Virus record (IMG/VR): IMGVR_UViG_3300029705_000031
DNA: 64,000 bases
From: a virus
Taxonomy: Duplodnaviria; Heunggongvirae; Uroviricota; Caudoviricetes
Direction: 5' to 3' (one strand)
This document shows positions 1 to 4,356 of the stretch, in pieces. Numbering within the stretch: position 1 is the stretch's first letter; the number at the start of each line of letters is the position of its first letter. A program made the position numbers and the translations under genes. Below the pieces are notes generated by a model that was not told where the DNA came from, ran no database searches, and saw nothing but the letters and a program-made list of their open reading frames with translations.

Positions 1-282
1 GATATGGGTGTAGGAATAGAAAATTATGAATTTGAATTTATGGATAGAGAAACTTTATCTGATTTAAATAGTAGAATAAATAATCAAATTAATAGATATA
101 TTCCTTCAATAAATATAGCAAATATTTTAGTAGATATAATAAATAATGATATGGATAGACATAAAAATAAAATTGGTGTACTTATTAATTTTGCAAAGAC
201 TAAAGAAGGACGAGAAAATATGGTACTTACTTTTGAAAAAGTTGGTAAGACTGGTAAAATTGAAAGTAAGATTTATATCTAA
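1..282 (+). CDS. Baseplate wedge protein, T4 gp25-like (probably 5'-truncated by window edge)
   Basis: MGVGIENYEFEFMD..TLSDLNSRINNQINRYIP resembles the gp25/GPW pattern; frame is open from base 1; next to a gp26-like gene. Confidence 0.6.
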   Translation, partial: DMGVGIENYEFEFMDRETLSDLNSRINNQINRYIPSINIANILVDIINNDMDRHKNKIGVLINFAKTKEGRENMVLTFEKVGKTGKIESKIYI

Positions 283-319: not shown

Positions 320-355
320 ATTCTCATTATTTTAGATAAGGAGGTCAAAAGAATA

Positions 356-1861
356 ATGGAAAACATTCCAGTTGAAATTAATGAAGTAATTGATTCTATT
401 GAGGTTACAACTAATAAAGTAAATAATACATCTGATCTAGATGATTTATTAAAGAATAGTTCTAAAGAAGAAATTTTAGCTAAGTTTGCAAAAATACATG
501 ATGAAGAAAATTCAGATAAAGAAACTGTAGAAGTAGTTACAACTATTGATGGTGGCAATACTGATCACGCAGATGGAAAGATTGTAGCACATGTTTCTGG
601 TGTCAATCTTGATATTTCTGATATCCCTATTGATGAAGACTCTGCATATGTTAGTTCTGTTTTAGGCAATCTAGATGATGAACCCGAACAAGCAGTAGAA
701 TCTGAAACTATGATTGATGAAGTAAACTTTGGAATCGATTTTAATGATAGTGAAAATATCGATTTTACTAAGGAAGCTGACGGAGTAGATCAGTCTGTTG
801 AAGGTGCATTAAAGGATGATGTAGTTACTAATTTCCGAAATGAAGAAAAGTATGTCTATCATTCTTATGCTGATAATAAAGTGTCTACTAGAGGTAATAA
901 TCCCAAGTTAGCATTTATGGATAAGATCAATGTTGACTTAAACAACATTACCATCACTAATAAGTCTCCTATTCAACAGGCAGAAGATATCAATCTAGTT
1001 TTCAATAGCAATGTAGCTACATTTACTGTAACTTGCTGTCAGTCTGGTTATACTGCGGATATGTCTGGTTTAACTCTATCTGAAAAGAATGCTATCAATA
1101 ATTCTGATGGTGGTGATTTATTCCAGTTCCGTCAGAGACTATATAAGACTGTCTATAATAAGATTCAGTCTATGTCTATTAAGAAGCCTGACTTTAATAC
1201 TTGGTTAAAGATTACTTCTTTCAATGATCTATCCACTTTACTATTTGGTATCTATTGTCAGACTTTTATTGATAACAATGACTTTGATATTACTTGTGGT
1301 AAGTGTGGTAAGTCTACTTCTGTTACTGTTAACAATCAGTCTTTAATTGAAGTTAGAGATAGAAATGCTTTTAAGAAGTTAGATGAGATTCTAAACTCTA
1401 CTAAGTCTGGAGAGGAACTAATTGCTACTTCTGTCATTCATAAGGATGAAAGAATTATGCTCAATGATAGTAAGATTGTTGTAGATGTTGCTACTCCTTC
1501 TCTATATGATCATATGGTAATGCTTAAGATCTCTAAGCAAGAAACTCTACAAGAATATGCTGATGCATTTAGTGCTATGCTATTCATTTCTCATCTATAT
1601 ATGTTAGATGTTAAGGAAACTTATAGTACTGGTCATGCTGTTTATTATGAAGTAACTGATAAGCCTAGACTACTTAACATTCTACTTAAGCTATCTAGTA
1701 GAGACGGTGAACAGCTAGAAAATGCTATTGAAGAGAAGTTAGGACAGTATAAGATTGACTACCAAATCCATAACGTAACCTGTTCTCATTGTAAAACTAA
1801 GCTTCCTGGAATTCCTGTAGATATTGAGACTATCCTTTTTACACGGATAAACAGGACGTAA
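356..1861 (+). CDS. Baseplate hub/tail assembly chaperone, T4 gp26-like, with acidic N-terminal extension
   Basis: GLTLSEK, LLFGIYCQTF..ITCGKCG, VATPSLYD and terminal TCSHC..DIETILF line up by eye with gp26 blocks and CxxC motifs. Confidence 0.6.
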   Translation: MENIPVEINEVIDSIEVTTNKVNNTSDLDDLLKNSSKEEILAKFAKIHDEENSDKETVEVVTTIDGGNTDHADGKIVAHVSGVNLDISDIPIDEDSAYVSSVLGNLDDEPEQAVESETMIDEVNFGIDFNDSENIDFTKEADGVDQSVEGALKDDVVTNFRNEEKYVYHSYADNKVSTRGNNPKLAFMDKINVDLNNITITNKSPIQQAEDINLVFNSNVATFTVTCCQSGYTADMSGLTLSEKNAINNSDGGDLFQFRQRLYKTVYNKIQSMSIKKPDFNTWLKITSFNDLSTLLFGIYCQTFIDNNDFDITCGKCGKSTSVTVNNQSLIEVRDRNAFKKLDEILNSTKSGEELIATSVIHKDERIMLNDSKIVVDVATPSLYDHMVMLKISKQETLQEYADAFSAMLFISHLYMLDVKETYSTGHAVYYEVTDKPRLLNILLKLSSRDGEQLENAIEEKLGQYKIDYQIHNVTCSHCKTKLPGIPVDIETILFTRINRT

Positions 1862-2109
1862 ATGGTAACGTAAGTTATAAAGTTTCAAGAGCAGCTGATA
1901 GTGATTTTATAGTCTCAGTTTTAGACCTGTTTGCAGGACAAATTTCACTTTCAGAAGTATTAAACTCTGAAATAGCTGTCTTAAAGGAACTATGTGAAGC
2001 AAGAAGTAAGCTATTAGAAGAAAAAGAAAAAGCCAAAGCTCAGGCAATGGCAAAAATCGAAAATGATAGAGCTTACGGTGATATCAATAAAATCTATAAT
2101 CAACGTTAA
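1834..2109 (+). CDS. -1 frame extension (gp51-like C-terminal tail) of the gp26-like gene, not in the ORF track
   Basis: Frame open 1828-2109 with no ATG/GTG/TTG until near its end; overlaps the gp26-like stop; slippery C CTT TTT at 1834-1840; encodes ..DFIVSVLDLFAGQISLSEVLNSEIAVLKELCEARSKLLEEKEK.. Confidence 0.6.
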   Translation, partial: PFYTDKQDVNGNVSYKVSRAADSDFIVSVLDLFAGQISLSEVLNSEIAVLKELCEARSKLLEEKEKAKAQAMAKIENDRAYGDINKIYNQR

Positions 2110-2186
2110 AAATTTTCATTATACTTTTCTGTAATTAAAAACTTATTGATGATTGATTTATTAATTACAGAAAGTGTGGTGATTCT

Positions 2187-2528
2187 ATGAATCCACGTTT
2201 AAAAAAGTTCAAGGATTTGACTACTTGGGTTGAATCTAATAGAGTTGAAAACCTATTAGAAGGAACTTTGTTTTTAAACAATGCTTTTAAATTCATTGAT
2301 TTACTGGTATTTTTAGATGAAAATTCTTTTGTATATACAGTAATAGAAGGATTTAAAGGAAAAACAGCTTTTGGAGAAAAGGAAAATCACTTTAAAGATG
2401 TCGTTTTACAAGTATCTAATGAACGAATAGAAAATGTAGTTGAATTTTTTAATAAATCTGCAAAATGTAATGAAGATTTTAAAGTACAAGTTATAGATAA
2501 TGATTTGATAAAAATTGAAATAAGATAA
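2187..2528 (+). CDS. Hypothetical protein
   Basis: 113 aa ORF with RBS-like GTGGTGA and a downstream terminator. Confidence 0.7.
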   Translation: MNPRLKKFKDLTTWVESNRVENLLEGTLFLNNAFKFIDLLVFLDENSFVYTVIEGFKGKTAFGEKENHFKDVVLQVSNERIENVVEFFNKSAKCNEDFKVQVIDNDLIKIEIR

Positions 2529-2536
2529 AAACATAA

Positions 2537-2575
2537 AATAAGGAATCTTTTAAGTAAAAGATTCCTTATTCTTTT
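2537..2575 (+). terminator. Intrinsic terminator
   Basis: 15-bp perfect stem AATAAGGAATCTTTT/AAAAGATTCCTTATT followed by a T-rich tail. Confidence 0.75.
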
Positions 2576-2616: not shown

Positions 2617-4356
2617 ATGGCTCAAGCAACAATTGACAATTTGTTTCTTAATTCTAACATTATAGATGAGGCTGAAGCTAAAGAAAAGATACGTTCTACT
2701 CTAAGTAAGATAGCACAAGAAGTTAGTAGATCTTTAGGCCCTTATGGTAGTACTACTATTATTGAAGATAGACTTGGTGATCATTATATGACTAAGGATG
2801 GTTATACTATTCTTAAGGCTATGAACTATAACTATGATATTTCTCGTACTGTATTAGATATAGTTAAAAAGATTTCTAAGTCTCTAGTTAGAACTGTTGG
2901 TGATGGTTCTACTTCATCTGTTATTATAGCTAATGAACTATTTGGTTCTATCAATACTATTTCAGAAAAGCTAGAATTAGCACCTCAAGATATCTTAGAG
3001 ATCTTTAATGTACTAGCTGAGAAATTTGAAGAGCTAATTCTGGAACATGCAACTCAGATTACAGATGAGAATTTTGATGAAACCATTACTAAGATAGCTA
3101 CTATTTCTTGTAACAACAATCAAGAAAGTGGCAAACTATTCTGTGATATTTTCAAGGCTATTGGTAGATACGGTTTTATCAATCTAGAAAATGGTAAATC
3201 TAGTAAGGACTATTTTGAAAAGGTACAAGGTATTGAAGTTCCTAGAGGTTGGATTAATGCGAGAATGGCCAACCAAAGTGATAGAATTTCAACTGAGTAT
3301 GAAAATGCTTTAGTATTCATGATGAATGACATGATGTCAGATGACGAAATAGATGTTATTGCTGGAATGATGGATACTATATGTATTAAACAGAATGTAC
3401 CTCTAATTCTAATTGCTACTAACTATACATCATCTGTTAAATCTTTCTTTGATGCAAATTTGCAGAAGAATAAGCATCTACCTGTAGTTGCTATAGATAT
3501 CGACGCATCTACTAAGAGAGGTAGAGAAAGATTTGAAGATTTAGCATTAGCTCTTGGATGTCATTACTATGATAAGTTCAATGGAATGGAAAAGATTAAA
3601 GATTTCTCCATTAAAGACTTAGGTAAATGTAAGCGTTTCAAAGGTGATGACCTAAAGTCTATCTTTATTGATGGCGATGGTTATACTTCTAATGCTGAAA
3701 AGCTACAAGAACACATAAAAAATCTAGAAGACGAATACCAGAGATTACAACATATGGATGAAATCCATGATAATCGTGAAACTGATCTGTTTCAGATTAA
3801 GAAGCGTATTGCTACTTTAACATCTAGTATGGCAACTCTTTATGTTGGTGGTAATTCTGAAATGGAAAGAACTACTAGAAAGTTCTTAATGGAAGATGCT
3901 GTCTACGCTTGCAGATCTTCAATAGAACATGGTTATGTTGTAGGTGGTAACTTAATCCTTCCTAAACTAATTGATAAGTATGAAACTGACATAATCACAA
4001 AAACTATCTCTGATAAACGTCTAGAGTATCTATTCAATATCTATGAAACAGTATTATCATTTTCTAATGCAATAAAGTTTATACTAGATACTGTATTTTC
4101 AGCATTTAAGAAATCTTTCTTAACTGTGTTAGAAAATGCACACATCAATAAAGAGAAAGCAGAAGAAATCATAGATACATGTTTAATGGAAGATAAGATC
4201 TATAATGTAAAACTACGTAGATATGAGAATGATAATGAAACTAATGTAATCAATTCAGCTCAGACTGATATTGAGATTATTAAAGCTAGTTTCTCTATCA
4301 TTGGTCTATTAGCTACTAGTAATCAGTTTATTACTACGAATCCTATGAATAGATAA
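2617..4356 (+). CDS. groEL: Phage chaperonin (GroEL-like)
   Basis: SLGPYG, TKDGYTI, VGDGSTS (GDGTT motif), YVGG..E and GYVVGG motifs; 579 aa. Confidence 0.92.
   Translation: MAQATIDNLFLNSNIIDEAEAKEKIRSTLSKIAQEVSRSLGPYGSTTIIEDRLGDHYMTKDGYTILKAMNYNYDISRTVLDIVKKISKSLVRTVGDGSTSSVIIANELFGSINTISEKLELAPQDILEIFNVLAEKFEELILEHATQITDENFDETITKIATISCNNNQESGKLFCDIFKAIGRYGFINLENGKSSKDYFEKVQGIEVPRGWINARMANQSDRISTEYENALVFMMNDMMSDDEIDVIAGMMDTICIKQNVPLILIATNYTSSVKSFFDANLQKNKHLPVVAIDIDASTKRGRERFEDLALALGCHYYDKFNGMEKIKDFSIKDLGKCKRFKGDDLKSIFIDGDGYTSNAEKLQEHIKNLEDEYQRLQHMDEIHDNRETDLFQIKKRIATLTSSMATLYVGGNSEMERTTRKFLMEDAVYACRSSIEHGYVVGGNLILPKLIDKYETDIITKTISDKRLEYLFNIYETVLSFSNAIKFILDTVFSAFKKSFLTVLENAHINKEKAEEIIDTCLMEDKIYNVKLRRYENDNETNVINSAQTDIEIIKASFSIIGLLATSNQFITTNPMNR

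What the first reader, a model, noticed from the sequence alone, without database searches (positions are those of the whole stretch)
356..2109. Probable -1 programmed frameshift making a gp26/gp51-like tail chaperone pair from one gene
Seen: the gp26-like ORF ends ..ATC CTT TTT ACA..TAA. The -1 frame is open from 1828 to 2109, has no usable start codon, and overlaps the slippery run C CTT TTT (1834-1840). A shift would add ~90 aa (..DFIVSVLDLFAGQISLSEVLNSEIAVLKELCEARSKLLEEKEK). Known: lambda G/GT-type tail chaperones use this logic, and T4 gp51 resembles gp26 plus a short C-terminal tail (..NYSLNSIMKM..ERGFVLKLIEK). Inference: this jumbo phage makes both forms by frameshifting rather than gene duplication, which would link T4 gp26/gp51 to G/GT.
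Basis: partly seen in the sequence, partly recalled or inferred. Interest (0 to 1): 0.75.

Follow-up and report, generated by a model that had tools for sequence, protein, structure and literature searches.

The report
Frameshift in jumbo-phage baseplate-hub chaperone gene
A tail-baseplate assembly gene of this uncultured gut jumbo phage, and of its cultured relatives AR9, PBS1, phiR1-37 and Staphylococcus phage S6, very probably makes a short and a long protein because some ribosomes slip back one base at a conserved U-run; the public records annotate the second part wrongly as a separate small gene.

Summary
ORF 356..1861 (501 aa) ends 6 codons after ATC CTT TTT. The -1 frame is open only from 1828 and runs to 2109. 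It has no ATG/GTG/TTG before 2047.

The same design is present in all 25 related loci I read. These include AR9, BpSp, S6, Madawaska, Machias, SA1, UFV_DC4 and phiR1-37. Each locus has:
- a U_UUY site (CTT TTT in most; T7, T8 or T4 runs in a few);
- a 0-frame stop 6-13 codons after the site;
- a -1 ORF of 73-141 aa with a conserved LDLFxGxxS helical domain and no conserved start.

A profile of the extension finds 229 protein clusters. Almost all are small ORFs called with ragged N-termini. The start-less stretch evolves like coding sequence, and independent read sets show no indel at the run. A programmed -1 ribosomal frameshift giving a 584-aa product is the best reading (about 0.8).

The protein belongs to the T4 gp26/gp51 fold class, by Foldseek and by one relative that passes Pfam PF12322. 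Homology of the extension to the gp51 tail was tested and not detected, so the G/GT and gp51 links remain analogy.

I found no publication. This scan had already noted the same idea in T4-like jumbo phages; here it extends to the AR9/PBS1 lineage.

The parts
1..282 (+). 3' part of the upstream gene, a gp25-like baseplate wedge subunit (context)
   Evidence: Weak Pfam GPW_gp25 hit (E 0.0088, below cut-off). The same position is annotated as baseplate wedge subunit in AR9, BpSp, Machias and SA1.
338..344 (+). Shine-Dalgarno AAGGAGG, 11 nt before the ATG of the main ORF
   Evidence: Read directly. No comparable motif precedes any codon of the -1 ORF.
356..1861 (+). 0-frame ORF, 501 aa: short form of a gp26/gp51-fold baseplate-hub assembly protein. 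The N-terminal ~180 aa are acidic and of low confidence; the core is ~185-500 with two Cys pairs.
   Evidence: phrog_18873 at E 7.8e-87. AF2 model with core pLDDT about 75-95. BFVD fold hits to gp51/gp26-type proteins. C314/C317 are invariant and C476/C479 nearly invariant.
1825..1827 (+). TGA in the -1 frame; upstream limit of the zone where a shift can occur
   Evidence: -1 frame open from 1828.
1835..1840 (+). Shift site CTT TTT. The essential part is U_UUU at 1837-1840, where tRNA-Phe re-pairs one base back.
   Evidence: CTT TTT or another U_UUY site is present at the homologous codon in all 25 loci. CTT is only 10-79% of Leu codons in these genes.
1859..1861 (+). 0-frame stop TAA, 6 codons after the shift site
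   Evidence: In relatives the 0-frame stop lies 6-13 codons after the site.
1840..2109 (+). -1 frame extension: 89 codons plus TAA, starting with the re-read T1840. It comprises a linker (aa 1-13), helix 14-30 carrying LDLF (nt 1921-1932), a short helix 37-42 and a long helix 45-87.
   Evidence: AF2 model at pLDDT 80. Profile search finds 229 clusters at E<=1e-3. Codon-position substitution counts are 158/106/265 in the start-less part.
1848..1855 (+). 5' arm (UAAACAGG) of a candidate long-range stimulatory helix, 7 nt after the U-run
   Evidence: It is the only consensus helix RNAalifold predicts for the 10-sequence alignment. 90% of cells are paired against 26-56% in slid controls, and 3 pairs show compensatory changes.
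1926..1933 (+). 3' arm (CCUGUUUG) of the candidate helix; it lies on the D-L-F codons of the extension
2187..2528 (+). Next gene (113 aa, no family), counterpart by position of AR9 g229 (context)
2617..4356 (+). GroEL-like chaperonin gene (context; conserved synteny)
   Evidence: Annotated as GroEL at the same position in AR9, BpSp, S6 and phiR1-37 and present in L030.

Best explanation
Gene 356..1861 encodes a baseplate-hub assembly protein of the T4 gp26/gp51 fold class. Most ribosomes terminate at 1859-1861 and make the 501-aa form. A fraction slips back one base while tRNA-Phe sits on UUU (1838-1840) preceded by U (1837). These ribosomes continue in the -1 frame to 2107-2109 and make a 584-aa form, ..ETILF-YTDKQ.., which carries a flexible linker and a helical domain of about 75 aa with the motif LDLFxGxxS. 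Because the P-site codon CUU cannot re-pair in most relatives, the slip is probably a single-tRNA (Phe) event on U_UUY rather than a tandem slip. It may be helped by a long-range helix that starts 7 nt downstream. By analogy with lambda G/GT and with T4's separate gp26 and gp51, both forms are probably needed, in a fixed ratio, to assemble the baseplate hub or tail, and neither stays in the virion. What is shown here is the sequence anatomy, its conservation, the coding signature of the extension and the fold class. The act of frameshifting, its efficiency, the helix's role and the function of the two forms are inferred.
For: (1) All 25 loci read have U_UUY at the homologous Phe codon, a 0-frame stop 6-13 codons later and an open -1 ORF of 73-141 aa. 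The loci are the window, AR9, BpSp, S6, Madawaska, Machias, SA1, UFV_DC4, phiR1-37, and the IMG/VR, JGI, ENA and Logan contigs down to 26% identity. (2) Openness is improbable by chance: P is 0.001-0.01 per AT-rich lineage. (3) There is no ATG/GTG/TTG between the site and the conserved motif in 18 of the 21 loci tabulated (Machias read by hand). GenBank starts fall inside the motif or use CTG, and the Madawaska and Machias records annotate an RBS for the neighbouring genes but none for the small ORF. (4) The called N-termini of 148 small-ORF cluster representatives map anywhere from -40 to +42 on the profile. (5) The start-less segment shows the third-position excess of coding sequence, 158/106/265. 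In AR9 and L021 it encodes Gly/Ser-rich linkers. (6) The Leu codon before the Phe is always CTT, or TAT in L021. CTT is the only Leu codon that ends in U, and it makes up only 10-79% of Leu codons. L030 has the canonical U UUU UUG; BpSp and L031 have U8 runs. (7) None of the best 150 hits of the profile search is a natural in-frame fusion, which suggests both forms are kept. (8) Independent DNA contigs show no indel at the run. (9) RNAalifold predicts one helix with compensatory changes. (10) Fold and family.
Against: There is no protein, ribosome-profiling or reporter evidence. The window's site is not a canonical X XXY YYZ heptamer, and the P-site tRNA-Leu cannot re-pair. The candidate helix is weak (consensus -3.2 kcal/mol with a 70-nt loop), is broken in some clade members, and was not shown in the other clades. 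L013 and L033 have an ATG some 20 codons after the site, so separate initiation cannot be excluded there. The window protein itself does not hit Pfam PF12322, and hhalign to a gp51 alignment is weak (probability 18%).
Confidence: 0.8

Rival explanations
1. The -1 ORF is a separate small gene that starts at its own, partly non-canonical, start codon, as the public records annotate it. Proximity to the U-run would then be a coincidence.
For: GenBank records annotate small CDSs of 46-66 aa here. L013, L033, L011 and L007 have an ATG or GTG before or at the motif.
Against: The annotated starts differ in position and codon: CTG in AR9, TTG inside LLDLF in S6 and phiR1-37, ATG after the motif in BpSp. 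They cut a conserved helix. No SD is annotated or visible. Residues and coding signature are conserved upstream of every candidate start, right up to the U-run. The frame is open exactly from the run in all lineages. N-termini are ragged in 148 clusters.
Confidence: 0.08
2. The long form arises by transcriptional slippage: the phage or host RNA polymerase adds one U in the T-run, so a fraction of mRNAs carries the fusion in frame.
For: A homopolymer is the conserved element. These phages encode unusual multisubunit RNA polymerases whose slippage behaviour is unknown. BpSp and L031 have T8 and L030 has T7.
Against: Most lineages have T5, and Machias and L021 only T4. That is shorter than the runs of about 7-9 known to support polymerase slippage (my knowledge). 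An RNA-library contig of a relative bridges the run without an indel, although contigs cannot show rare variants.
Confidence: 0.07
3. It is an artefact or decay: a sequencing indel in a homopolymer, or a pseudogene whose C-terminus has been split off.
For: Homopolymers are error-prone. One relative's called protein (P0086) is a frame-chimeric product.
Against: The same frame relation holds in 25 independent assemblies, including finished genomes of cultured phages. Three independent DNA runs bridge T5 unchanged. Both parts are conserved.
Confidence: 0.01

Closest known systems
Phage T4 gp26 (208 aa) and gp51 (249 aa), baseplate hub assembly chaperones (Pfam PF12322 T4_baseplate; listed as hub assembly chaperones in Leiman et al. 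2010, PMC3004832)
   Same: The fold class is the same. Both have two Cys pairs and a conserved Phe about 14-16 residues after the second pair, near the domain end (read by eye). Both lie next to the gp25-like wedge gene. Both exist as a short form and a form with an extra C-terminal tail that begins at the same domain boundary.
   Different: T4 encodes the two forms as two genes, and gene 26 has no -1 ORF: a TGA follows at once. The window protein is 501 aa with a long acidic N-terminal region and does not hit PF12322 itself. The extension shows no detectable similarity to the gp51 tail.
Lambda gpG/gpGT and the conserved -1 frameshift of tail assembly chaperone genes (Xu, Hendrix and Duda 2004, cited in PMC9024508; also P2 E/E+E')
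   Same: The logic is the same: a -1 shift near the 3' end of an assembly gene, a 0-frame stop soon after, and a start-less downstream ORF that adds a C-terminal domain. L030 even uses U UUU UUG, which I recall as the P2 E/E+E' heptamer (from memory, not checked here).
   Different: The protein family and fold differ. The genomic place differs: wedge gene to GroEL, not tube to tape measure. The slippery site is mostly non-canonical. The partners of the two forms are unknown.
Phage T7 gene 10A/10B -1 frameshift at G GUU UUC (my knowledge)
   Same: tRNA-Phe slips onto UUU while the P-site codon re-pairs poorly. C CUU UUU and CUU UUC (Machias) are of the same type.
   Different: That is a capsid gene and is unrelated. 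The stimulatory elements differ.
This scan's earlier notes on T4-like jumbo phages (for example e1-5407410, e1-5364886)
   Same: The idea is the same: a gp26-like gene, a -1 slip, and a short plus a long hub chaperone.
   Different: Those cases have TTTTTTC runs and PF12322-positive proteins with gp51-like tails. This lineage (AR9/PBS1-like, phrog_18873) has U_UUY, a far more diverged core and an unrelated-looking extension. I did not re-test those notes.

Membership tests
T4 gp26/gp51 (Pfam PF12322 T4_baseplate) | The protein itself scores above the Pfam gathering cut-off | tested here: not met
   No PF12322 hit at E<=1 for window 356-1858. hhalign of A1 against a gp51 alignment gives probability 18%, covering the zinc knuckle only.
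T4 gp26/gp51 (Pfam PF12322 T4_baseplate) | Transitive sequence link through a relative that passes the cut-off | tested here: met
   P0031 scores 26.6 bits against a cut-off of 24.5. It aligns to the window protein over residues 230-497 at E 9e-18.
T4 gp26/gp51 (Pfam PF12322 T4_baseplate) | Same fold as gp26/gp51-type proteins | tested here: met
   Foldseek against BFVD: many 'baseplate hub assembly protein, T4-like' and 'baseplate hub subunit' entries at E 7e-8 to 1e-4, target TM-score 0.5-0.68. No solved structure matches.
T4 gp26/gp51 (Pfam PF12322 T4_baseplate) | Two Cys pairs (zinc knuckles) in the core | tested here: met
   C314 and C317 are invariant; C476 and C479 are nearly invariant. 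T4 gp26 and gp51 show the same pairs.
T4 gp26/gp51 (Pfam PF12322 T4_baseplate) | Assembly factor absent from the virion | not testable with these tools
   The only hint is in the phiR1-37 record: g241 and g242 lack the 'phage structural protein' note that g236, g237, g239, g240 and g244 carry.
G/GT-type tail assembly chaperone frameshift | -1 shift near the 3' end gives a C-terminally extended second product | tested here: inconclusive
   The comparative evidence is strong, but no product was observed.
G/GT-type tail assembly chaperone frameshift | Canonical X XXY YYZ heptamer | tested here: not met
   The window has C CUU UUU; most relatives have G CUU UUU. Canonical sites occur only in L030 (U UUU UUG) and in BpSp and L031 (U8).
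G/GT-type tail assembly chaperone frameshift | Located between the tail tube and tape-measure genes | tested here: not met
   The gene lies between a gp25-like wedge gene and two small genes followed by GroEL, in all annotated relatives.
G/GT-type tail assembly chaperone frameshift | Sequence or fold similarity to gpG-type chaperones | tested here: not met
   No TAC family in Pfam or PHROGs. The only 'tape measure chaperone' fold hit has E 0.77.
phrog_18873 | HMM hit over the full profile | tested here: met
   E 7.8e-87, covering profile positions 27-396 of 400 and ending at residue 498.

The most novel reading that the evidence does not exclude
The gp26/gp51-type hub chaperones are the jumbo- and T4-type myophage counterpart of G/GT. 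In this reading an ancestral single gene made two forms by -1 frameshifting. That state survives in AR9/PBS1-like and other jumbo phages, here on a minimal U_UUY site helped by a long-range helix. T4 later resolved it into two genes, 26 and 51. This would give the long-unexplained 'catalytic' gp51 a concrete role as the long, partner-binding form of a two-form chaperone.
Probability: 0.3. Interest if true: 0.8.

Novelty: new variant of a known kind. Interest (0 to 1): 0.62.

Why it matters
Programmed frameshifting in tail-assembly genes is a classic feature of long-tailed phages, but T4-type and jumbo myophages were left out of that picture, and the roles of T4 gp26 and gp51 are still unclear. 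A conserved two-form gene of the same fold class, sitting next to the wedge gene, gives a testable model for hub assembly. It occurs in cultured, tractable phages: AR9 and PBS1 on Bacillus subtilis, phiR1-37 on Yersinia, and S6 on Staphylococcus. It also corrects the annotation of every public genome of this group, in which the second half is filed as an orphan small protein. Finally, it adds a minimal, non-canonical shift site (U_UUY) to the list that frameshift finders should look for.

Tried and rejected
1. Homology of the extension to the T4 gp51 tail was tested and not detected. hhalign of A3 against a 31-sequence gp51 alignment gave probability 2%. An HMM of 160 extensions scored at most 2.2 bits on 94 gp51 homologs, while reversed and shuffled controls reached 0.6 and 8.2 bits. 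A by-eye resemblance (YSLNSISKMIP against LSLxEILxxDIP) remains only a lead.
2. Pfam scans of the extension found nothing. A BFVD fold search with the extension model found nothing below E 0.1.
3. A PDB fold search with the main model found nothing.
4. I looked for a natural in-frame fusion. The only long hit, P0086 (569 aa), changes frame about halfway and reads the shift site in the -1 frame, so it is an assembly or calling artefact, not a fusion.
5. T4 gene 26 has no -1 extension: a TGA follows directly.
6. phiKZ: HMM searches of the whole record with the main and extension profiles found nothing. This says nothing either way.
7. tblastn of two distant small-ORF representatives against cultured phages found no match.
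8. Local hairpins within 60 nt downstream of the site are not more stable than shuffles in any lineage (z between -1.4 and +1.0).
9. LPJP1: the gene is cut by the record's ends, so only the CTT TTT site could be read, not the extension.
10. Literature searches for a frameshift in gp26, gp51, AR9, PBS1 or baseplate hub genes returned nothing relevant.
11. Contigs of the runs laid cannot show rare RNA variants, so they do not test transcriptional slippage.

Full report
**1. Observation**

The window has an ORF at 356..1861 (501 aa) preceded by AAGGAGG at 338-344. Its 3' end reads ATC CTT TTT ACA CGG ATA AAC AGG ACG TAA.

In the -1 frame a TGA lies at 1825-1827. After it the frame is open to the TAA at 2107-2109. 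No ATG, GTG or TTG occurs in that frame before 2047.

A -1 shift after TTT (1838-1840) would give ..ETILF-YTDKQ.. plus 89 residues, 584 aa in all.

**2. What the relatives show**

tblastn places the gene in the AR9/PBS1 group of jumbo phages: AR9, PBS1, Goe21, Internexus, BpSp, ten Staphylococcus jumbo phages, Listeria LPJP1 and Yersinia phiR1-37.

Synteny is constant: gp25-like wedge gene, this gene, a small ORF, another small ORF, then GroEL.

I read the 3' ends of 25 loci. They comprise these cultured phages plus contigs from IMG/VR, JGI, ENA and Logan, down to 26% identity. Every locus has the following features:
- a Phe codon UUY preceded by U, at the homologous position about 16 residues after the second Cys pair;
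- a 0-frame stop 6-13 codons later;
- a -1 frame that opens only 4-46 nt before the site and then runs for 73-141 codons.

The site is CTT TTT in most loci. The exceptions are:
- CTT TTT TTT in BpSp and L031;
- ATT TTT TTG in L030;
- CTT TTC in Machias;
- TAT TTT C in the GC-rich L021.

The -1 products share a motif (L)LDLFxG.(I/L)S located 22-35 residues after the site, followed by a long helix.

**3. Is it more than chance, and is it translated?**

- **Open frame.** Stop codons fill about 15-26% of -1-frame codons inside the main ORFs. The open run up to the motif therefore has P of about 0.001-0.01 in each AT-rich lineage.
- **Leu codon.** The Leu codon before the Phe is always CTT, the only Leu codon ending in U. 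CTT is only 10-79% of Leu codons in these genes. For ten deep lineages the product of these fractions is about 1e-6 (my arithmetic).
- **Coding signature.** In the window clade I took the ten codons that lie after every 0-frame stop and before the motif. Substitutions there fall 158/106/265 on codon positions 1/2/3. The pattern further downstream is the same, 561/267/796.
- **Linkers.** In AR9 and L021 this stretch encodes Gly/Ser-rich linkers. That makes sense for a fusion and not for an untranslated leader.
- **Start codons.** A canonical start before the motif exists in only 3 of the 21 loci tabulated.
- **Public annotation.** The public records start the small ORF at CTG in AR9, at a TTG inside LLDLF in S6 and phiR1-37, or after the motif in BpSp. 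The Madawaska and Machias records annotate an RBS for the neighbouring genes but none for this ORF.
- **Profile search.** A profile of the extension, searched against 1.84 billion representatives, finds 229 clusters at E<=1e-3. Among the best 150, 148 are ORFs of 41-145 aa. Their called N-termini map anywhere from 40 positions before to 42 positions after the start of the profile. Several read through the site in the -1 frame.
- **No in-frame fusion.** None of those 150 is a natural in-frame fusion. The one long hit is a frame chimera. This argues that both the short and the long form are under selection.
- **Assembly error excluded.** Contigs of three independent DNA runs bridge the T5 run with no indel.

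**4. Mechanism**

The conserved element is U_UUY. After a -1 slip tRNA-Phe still pairs with UUU. The preceding CUU would have to pair with NCU and cannot do so in most lineages. I therefore favour a single-tRNA slip of tRNA-Phe, the type I recall from T7 gene 10 (G GUU UUC), over a classical tandem slip. The T7 comparison is from my own knowledge.

Local hairpins downstream are not unusually stable. RNAalifold on ten sequences of the window clade predicts one helix and nothing else: 1848-1855 with 1926-1933. Its 5' arm starts 7 nt after the run, and its 3' arm lies on the D-L-F codons. Pairing holds in 90% of cells, against 26-56% when the partner is slid. Three pairs show compensatory changes.

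Long-range pairings of a similar kind can be drawn in the S6 group (GCGCUGCAU with AUGCAGCGU), BpSp and AR9. I did not test those. The helix is a candidate stimulator, not a finding.

Transcriptional slippage is unlikely on runs of 4-5 U, but it is not excluded.

**5. What the protein is**

- **Family scans.** Pfam sees nothing in the window protein. PHROGs places it in phrog_18873, of unknown function.
- **Main-protein model.** An AF2 model built from 30 homologs has a confident core over residues ~185-500. Against BFVD it matches its own family first. It then matches proteins of several other jumbo phages (Ralstonia RSF1 and RP12; Erwinia Special G and phiEaH2). After those come many T4-like 'baseplate hub assembly protein' and 'baseplate hub subunit' entries at E 7e-8 to 1e-4.
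- **Sequence link.** A distant homolog, P0031, aligns to the window protein at E 9e-18 and passes the PF12322 cut-off. Its locus has the same CTT TTT ACA CG and the same -1 ORF.
- **T4 comparison.** T4 gp26 is covered end to end by PF12322. Both are listed as hub assembly chaperones (PMC3004832). T4 gene 26 has no -1 ORF.
- **The extension.** It folds as a linker plus three helices at pLDDT 80. It shows no detectable similarity to gp51 tails.

The gene is therefore a diverged member of the gp26/gp51 fold class. The parallel 'short form / long form' is positional and functional analogy, not shown homology. It is not a member of the G/GT family: the fold and the genomic place differ, and the heptamer is mostly non-canonical.

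**6. Novelty**

I found no paper that reports a frameshift in gp26/gp51-type genes or in AR9-group phages.

This scan had already noted the same idea in at least 45 genomes of T4-like jumbo phages, with TTTTTTC runs. I did not re-test those notes.

What this window adds:
- a second, much more diverged lineage;
- cultured model phages in which the idea can be tested;
- a minimal shift site;
- a candidate long-range helix;
- evidence that all public records of the group mis-annotate the downstream ORF.

**7. Verdict**

The frameshift reading is well supported by comparative evidence (0.8) but has not been shown experimentally. The family assignment is supported at fold level. The gp51-tail and G/GT links remain unproven.

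Noticed in passing
L001 3969-4169 (AR9 g230); L003 4038-4238 (S6_1160); L004 4080-4247 (phiR1-37 g242); L002 4029-4169 (BpSp gp285); L023 1984-2181; L024 1801-1953: The small CDSs annotated downstream of the hub-chaperone gene in public records start at CTG, at TTG inside the LLDLF motif, or after the motif. They look like truncated calls of the frameshift extension.
   Followed up: yes
window 2126-2138 and 2161-2173: A 13-bp perfect inverted repeat (TTTCTGTAATTAA / TTAATTACAGAAA) with a 22-nt loop lies directly after the stop of the extension and before the next gene. It may be a transcript-end or processing hairpin. The consensus terminator scan did not flag it because of the loop size.
   Followed up: no
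window 2537-2570: A terminator-like hairpin (15-17 pairs, then a T-run), readable on both strands, lies after the 113-aa ORF and before the GroEL gene.
   Followed up: no
window 356-900 (residues 1-180 of the protein): The N-terminal third is acidic, modelled with pLDDT below 50 and variable in length among relatives (398 aa in AR9, 603 aa in P0031). T4 gp26 and gp51 lack such a region.
   Followed up: partly
L021 1040-1201: A GC-rich relative has TAT TTT C instead of CTT TTT. Its -1 frame encodes a long Gly/Ser-rich linker. The contig ends before the conserved motif, so the extension could not be confirmed.
   Followed up: partly
BFVD hits: In other jumbo phages (Ralstonia RP12, Erwinia Special G and one unnamed entry) the fold hits to the main protein and the weak hits to the extension have neighbouring UniProt accessions, for example I1VX76/I1VX77. 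This hints at the same two-ORF arrangement there. HMM searches of phiKZ itself found nothing.
   Followed up: partly
P0086 (569 aa, GC-rich metagenomic relative): The called protein is homologous to the main domain up to about residue 345. It then runs in another frame and ends with the extension read through the shift site. It is probably an assembly indel in a genome whose alternative frames are open.
   Followed up: partly
gp51 homologs P0184-P0275: The precomputed Pfam column lists a second family, PF28602, on gp51 homologs in addition to PF12322. It is presumably the gp51-specific tail. It is not in the local Pfam copy, so the extension could not be scanned against it.
   Followed up: no
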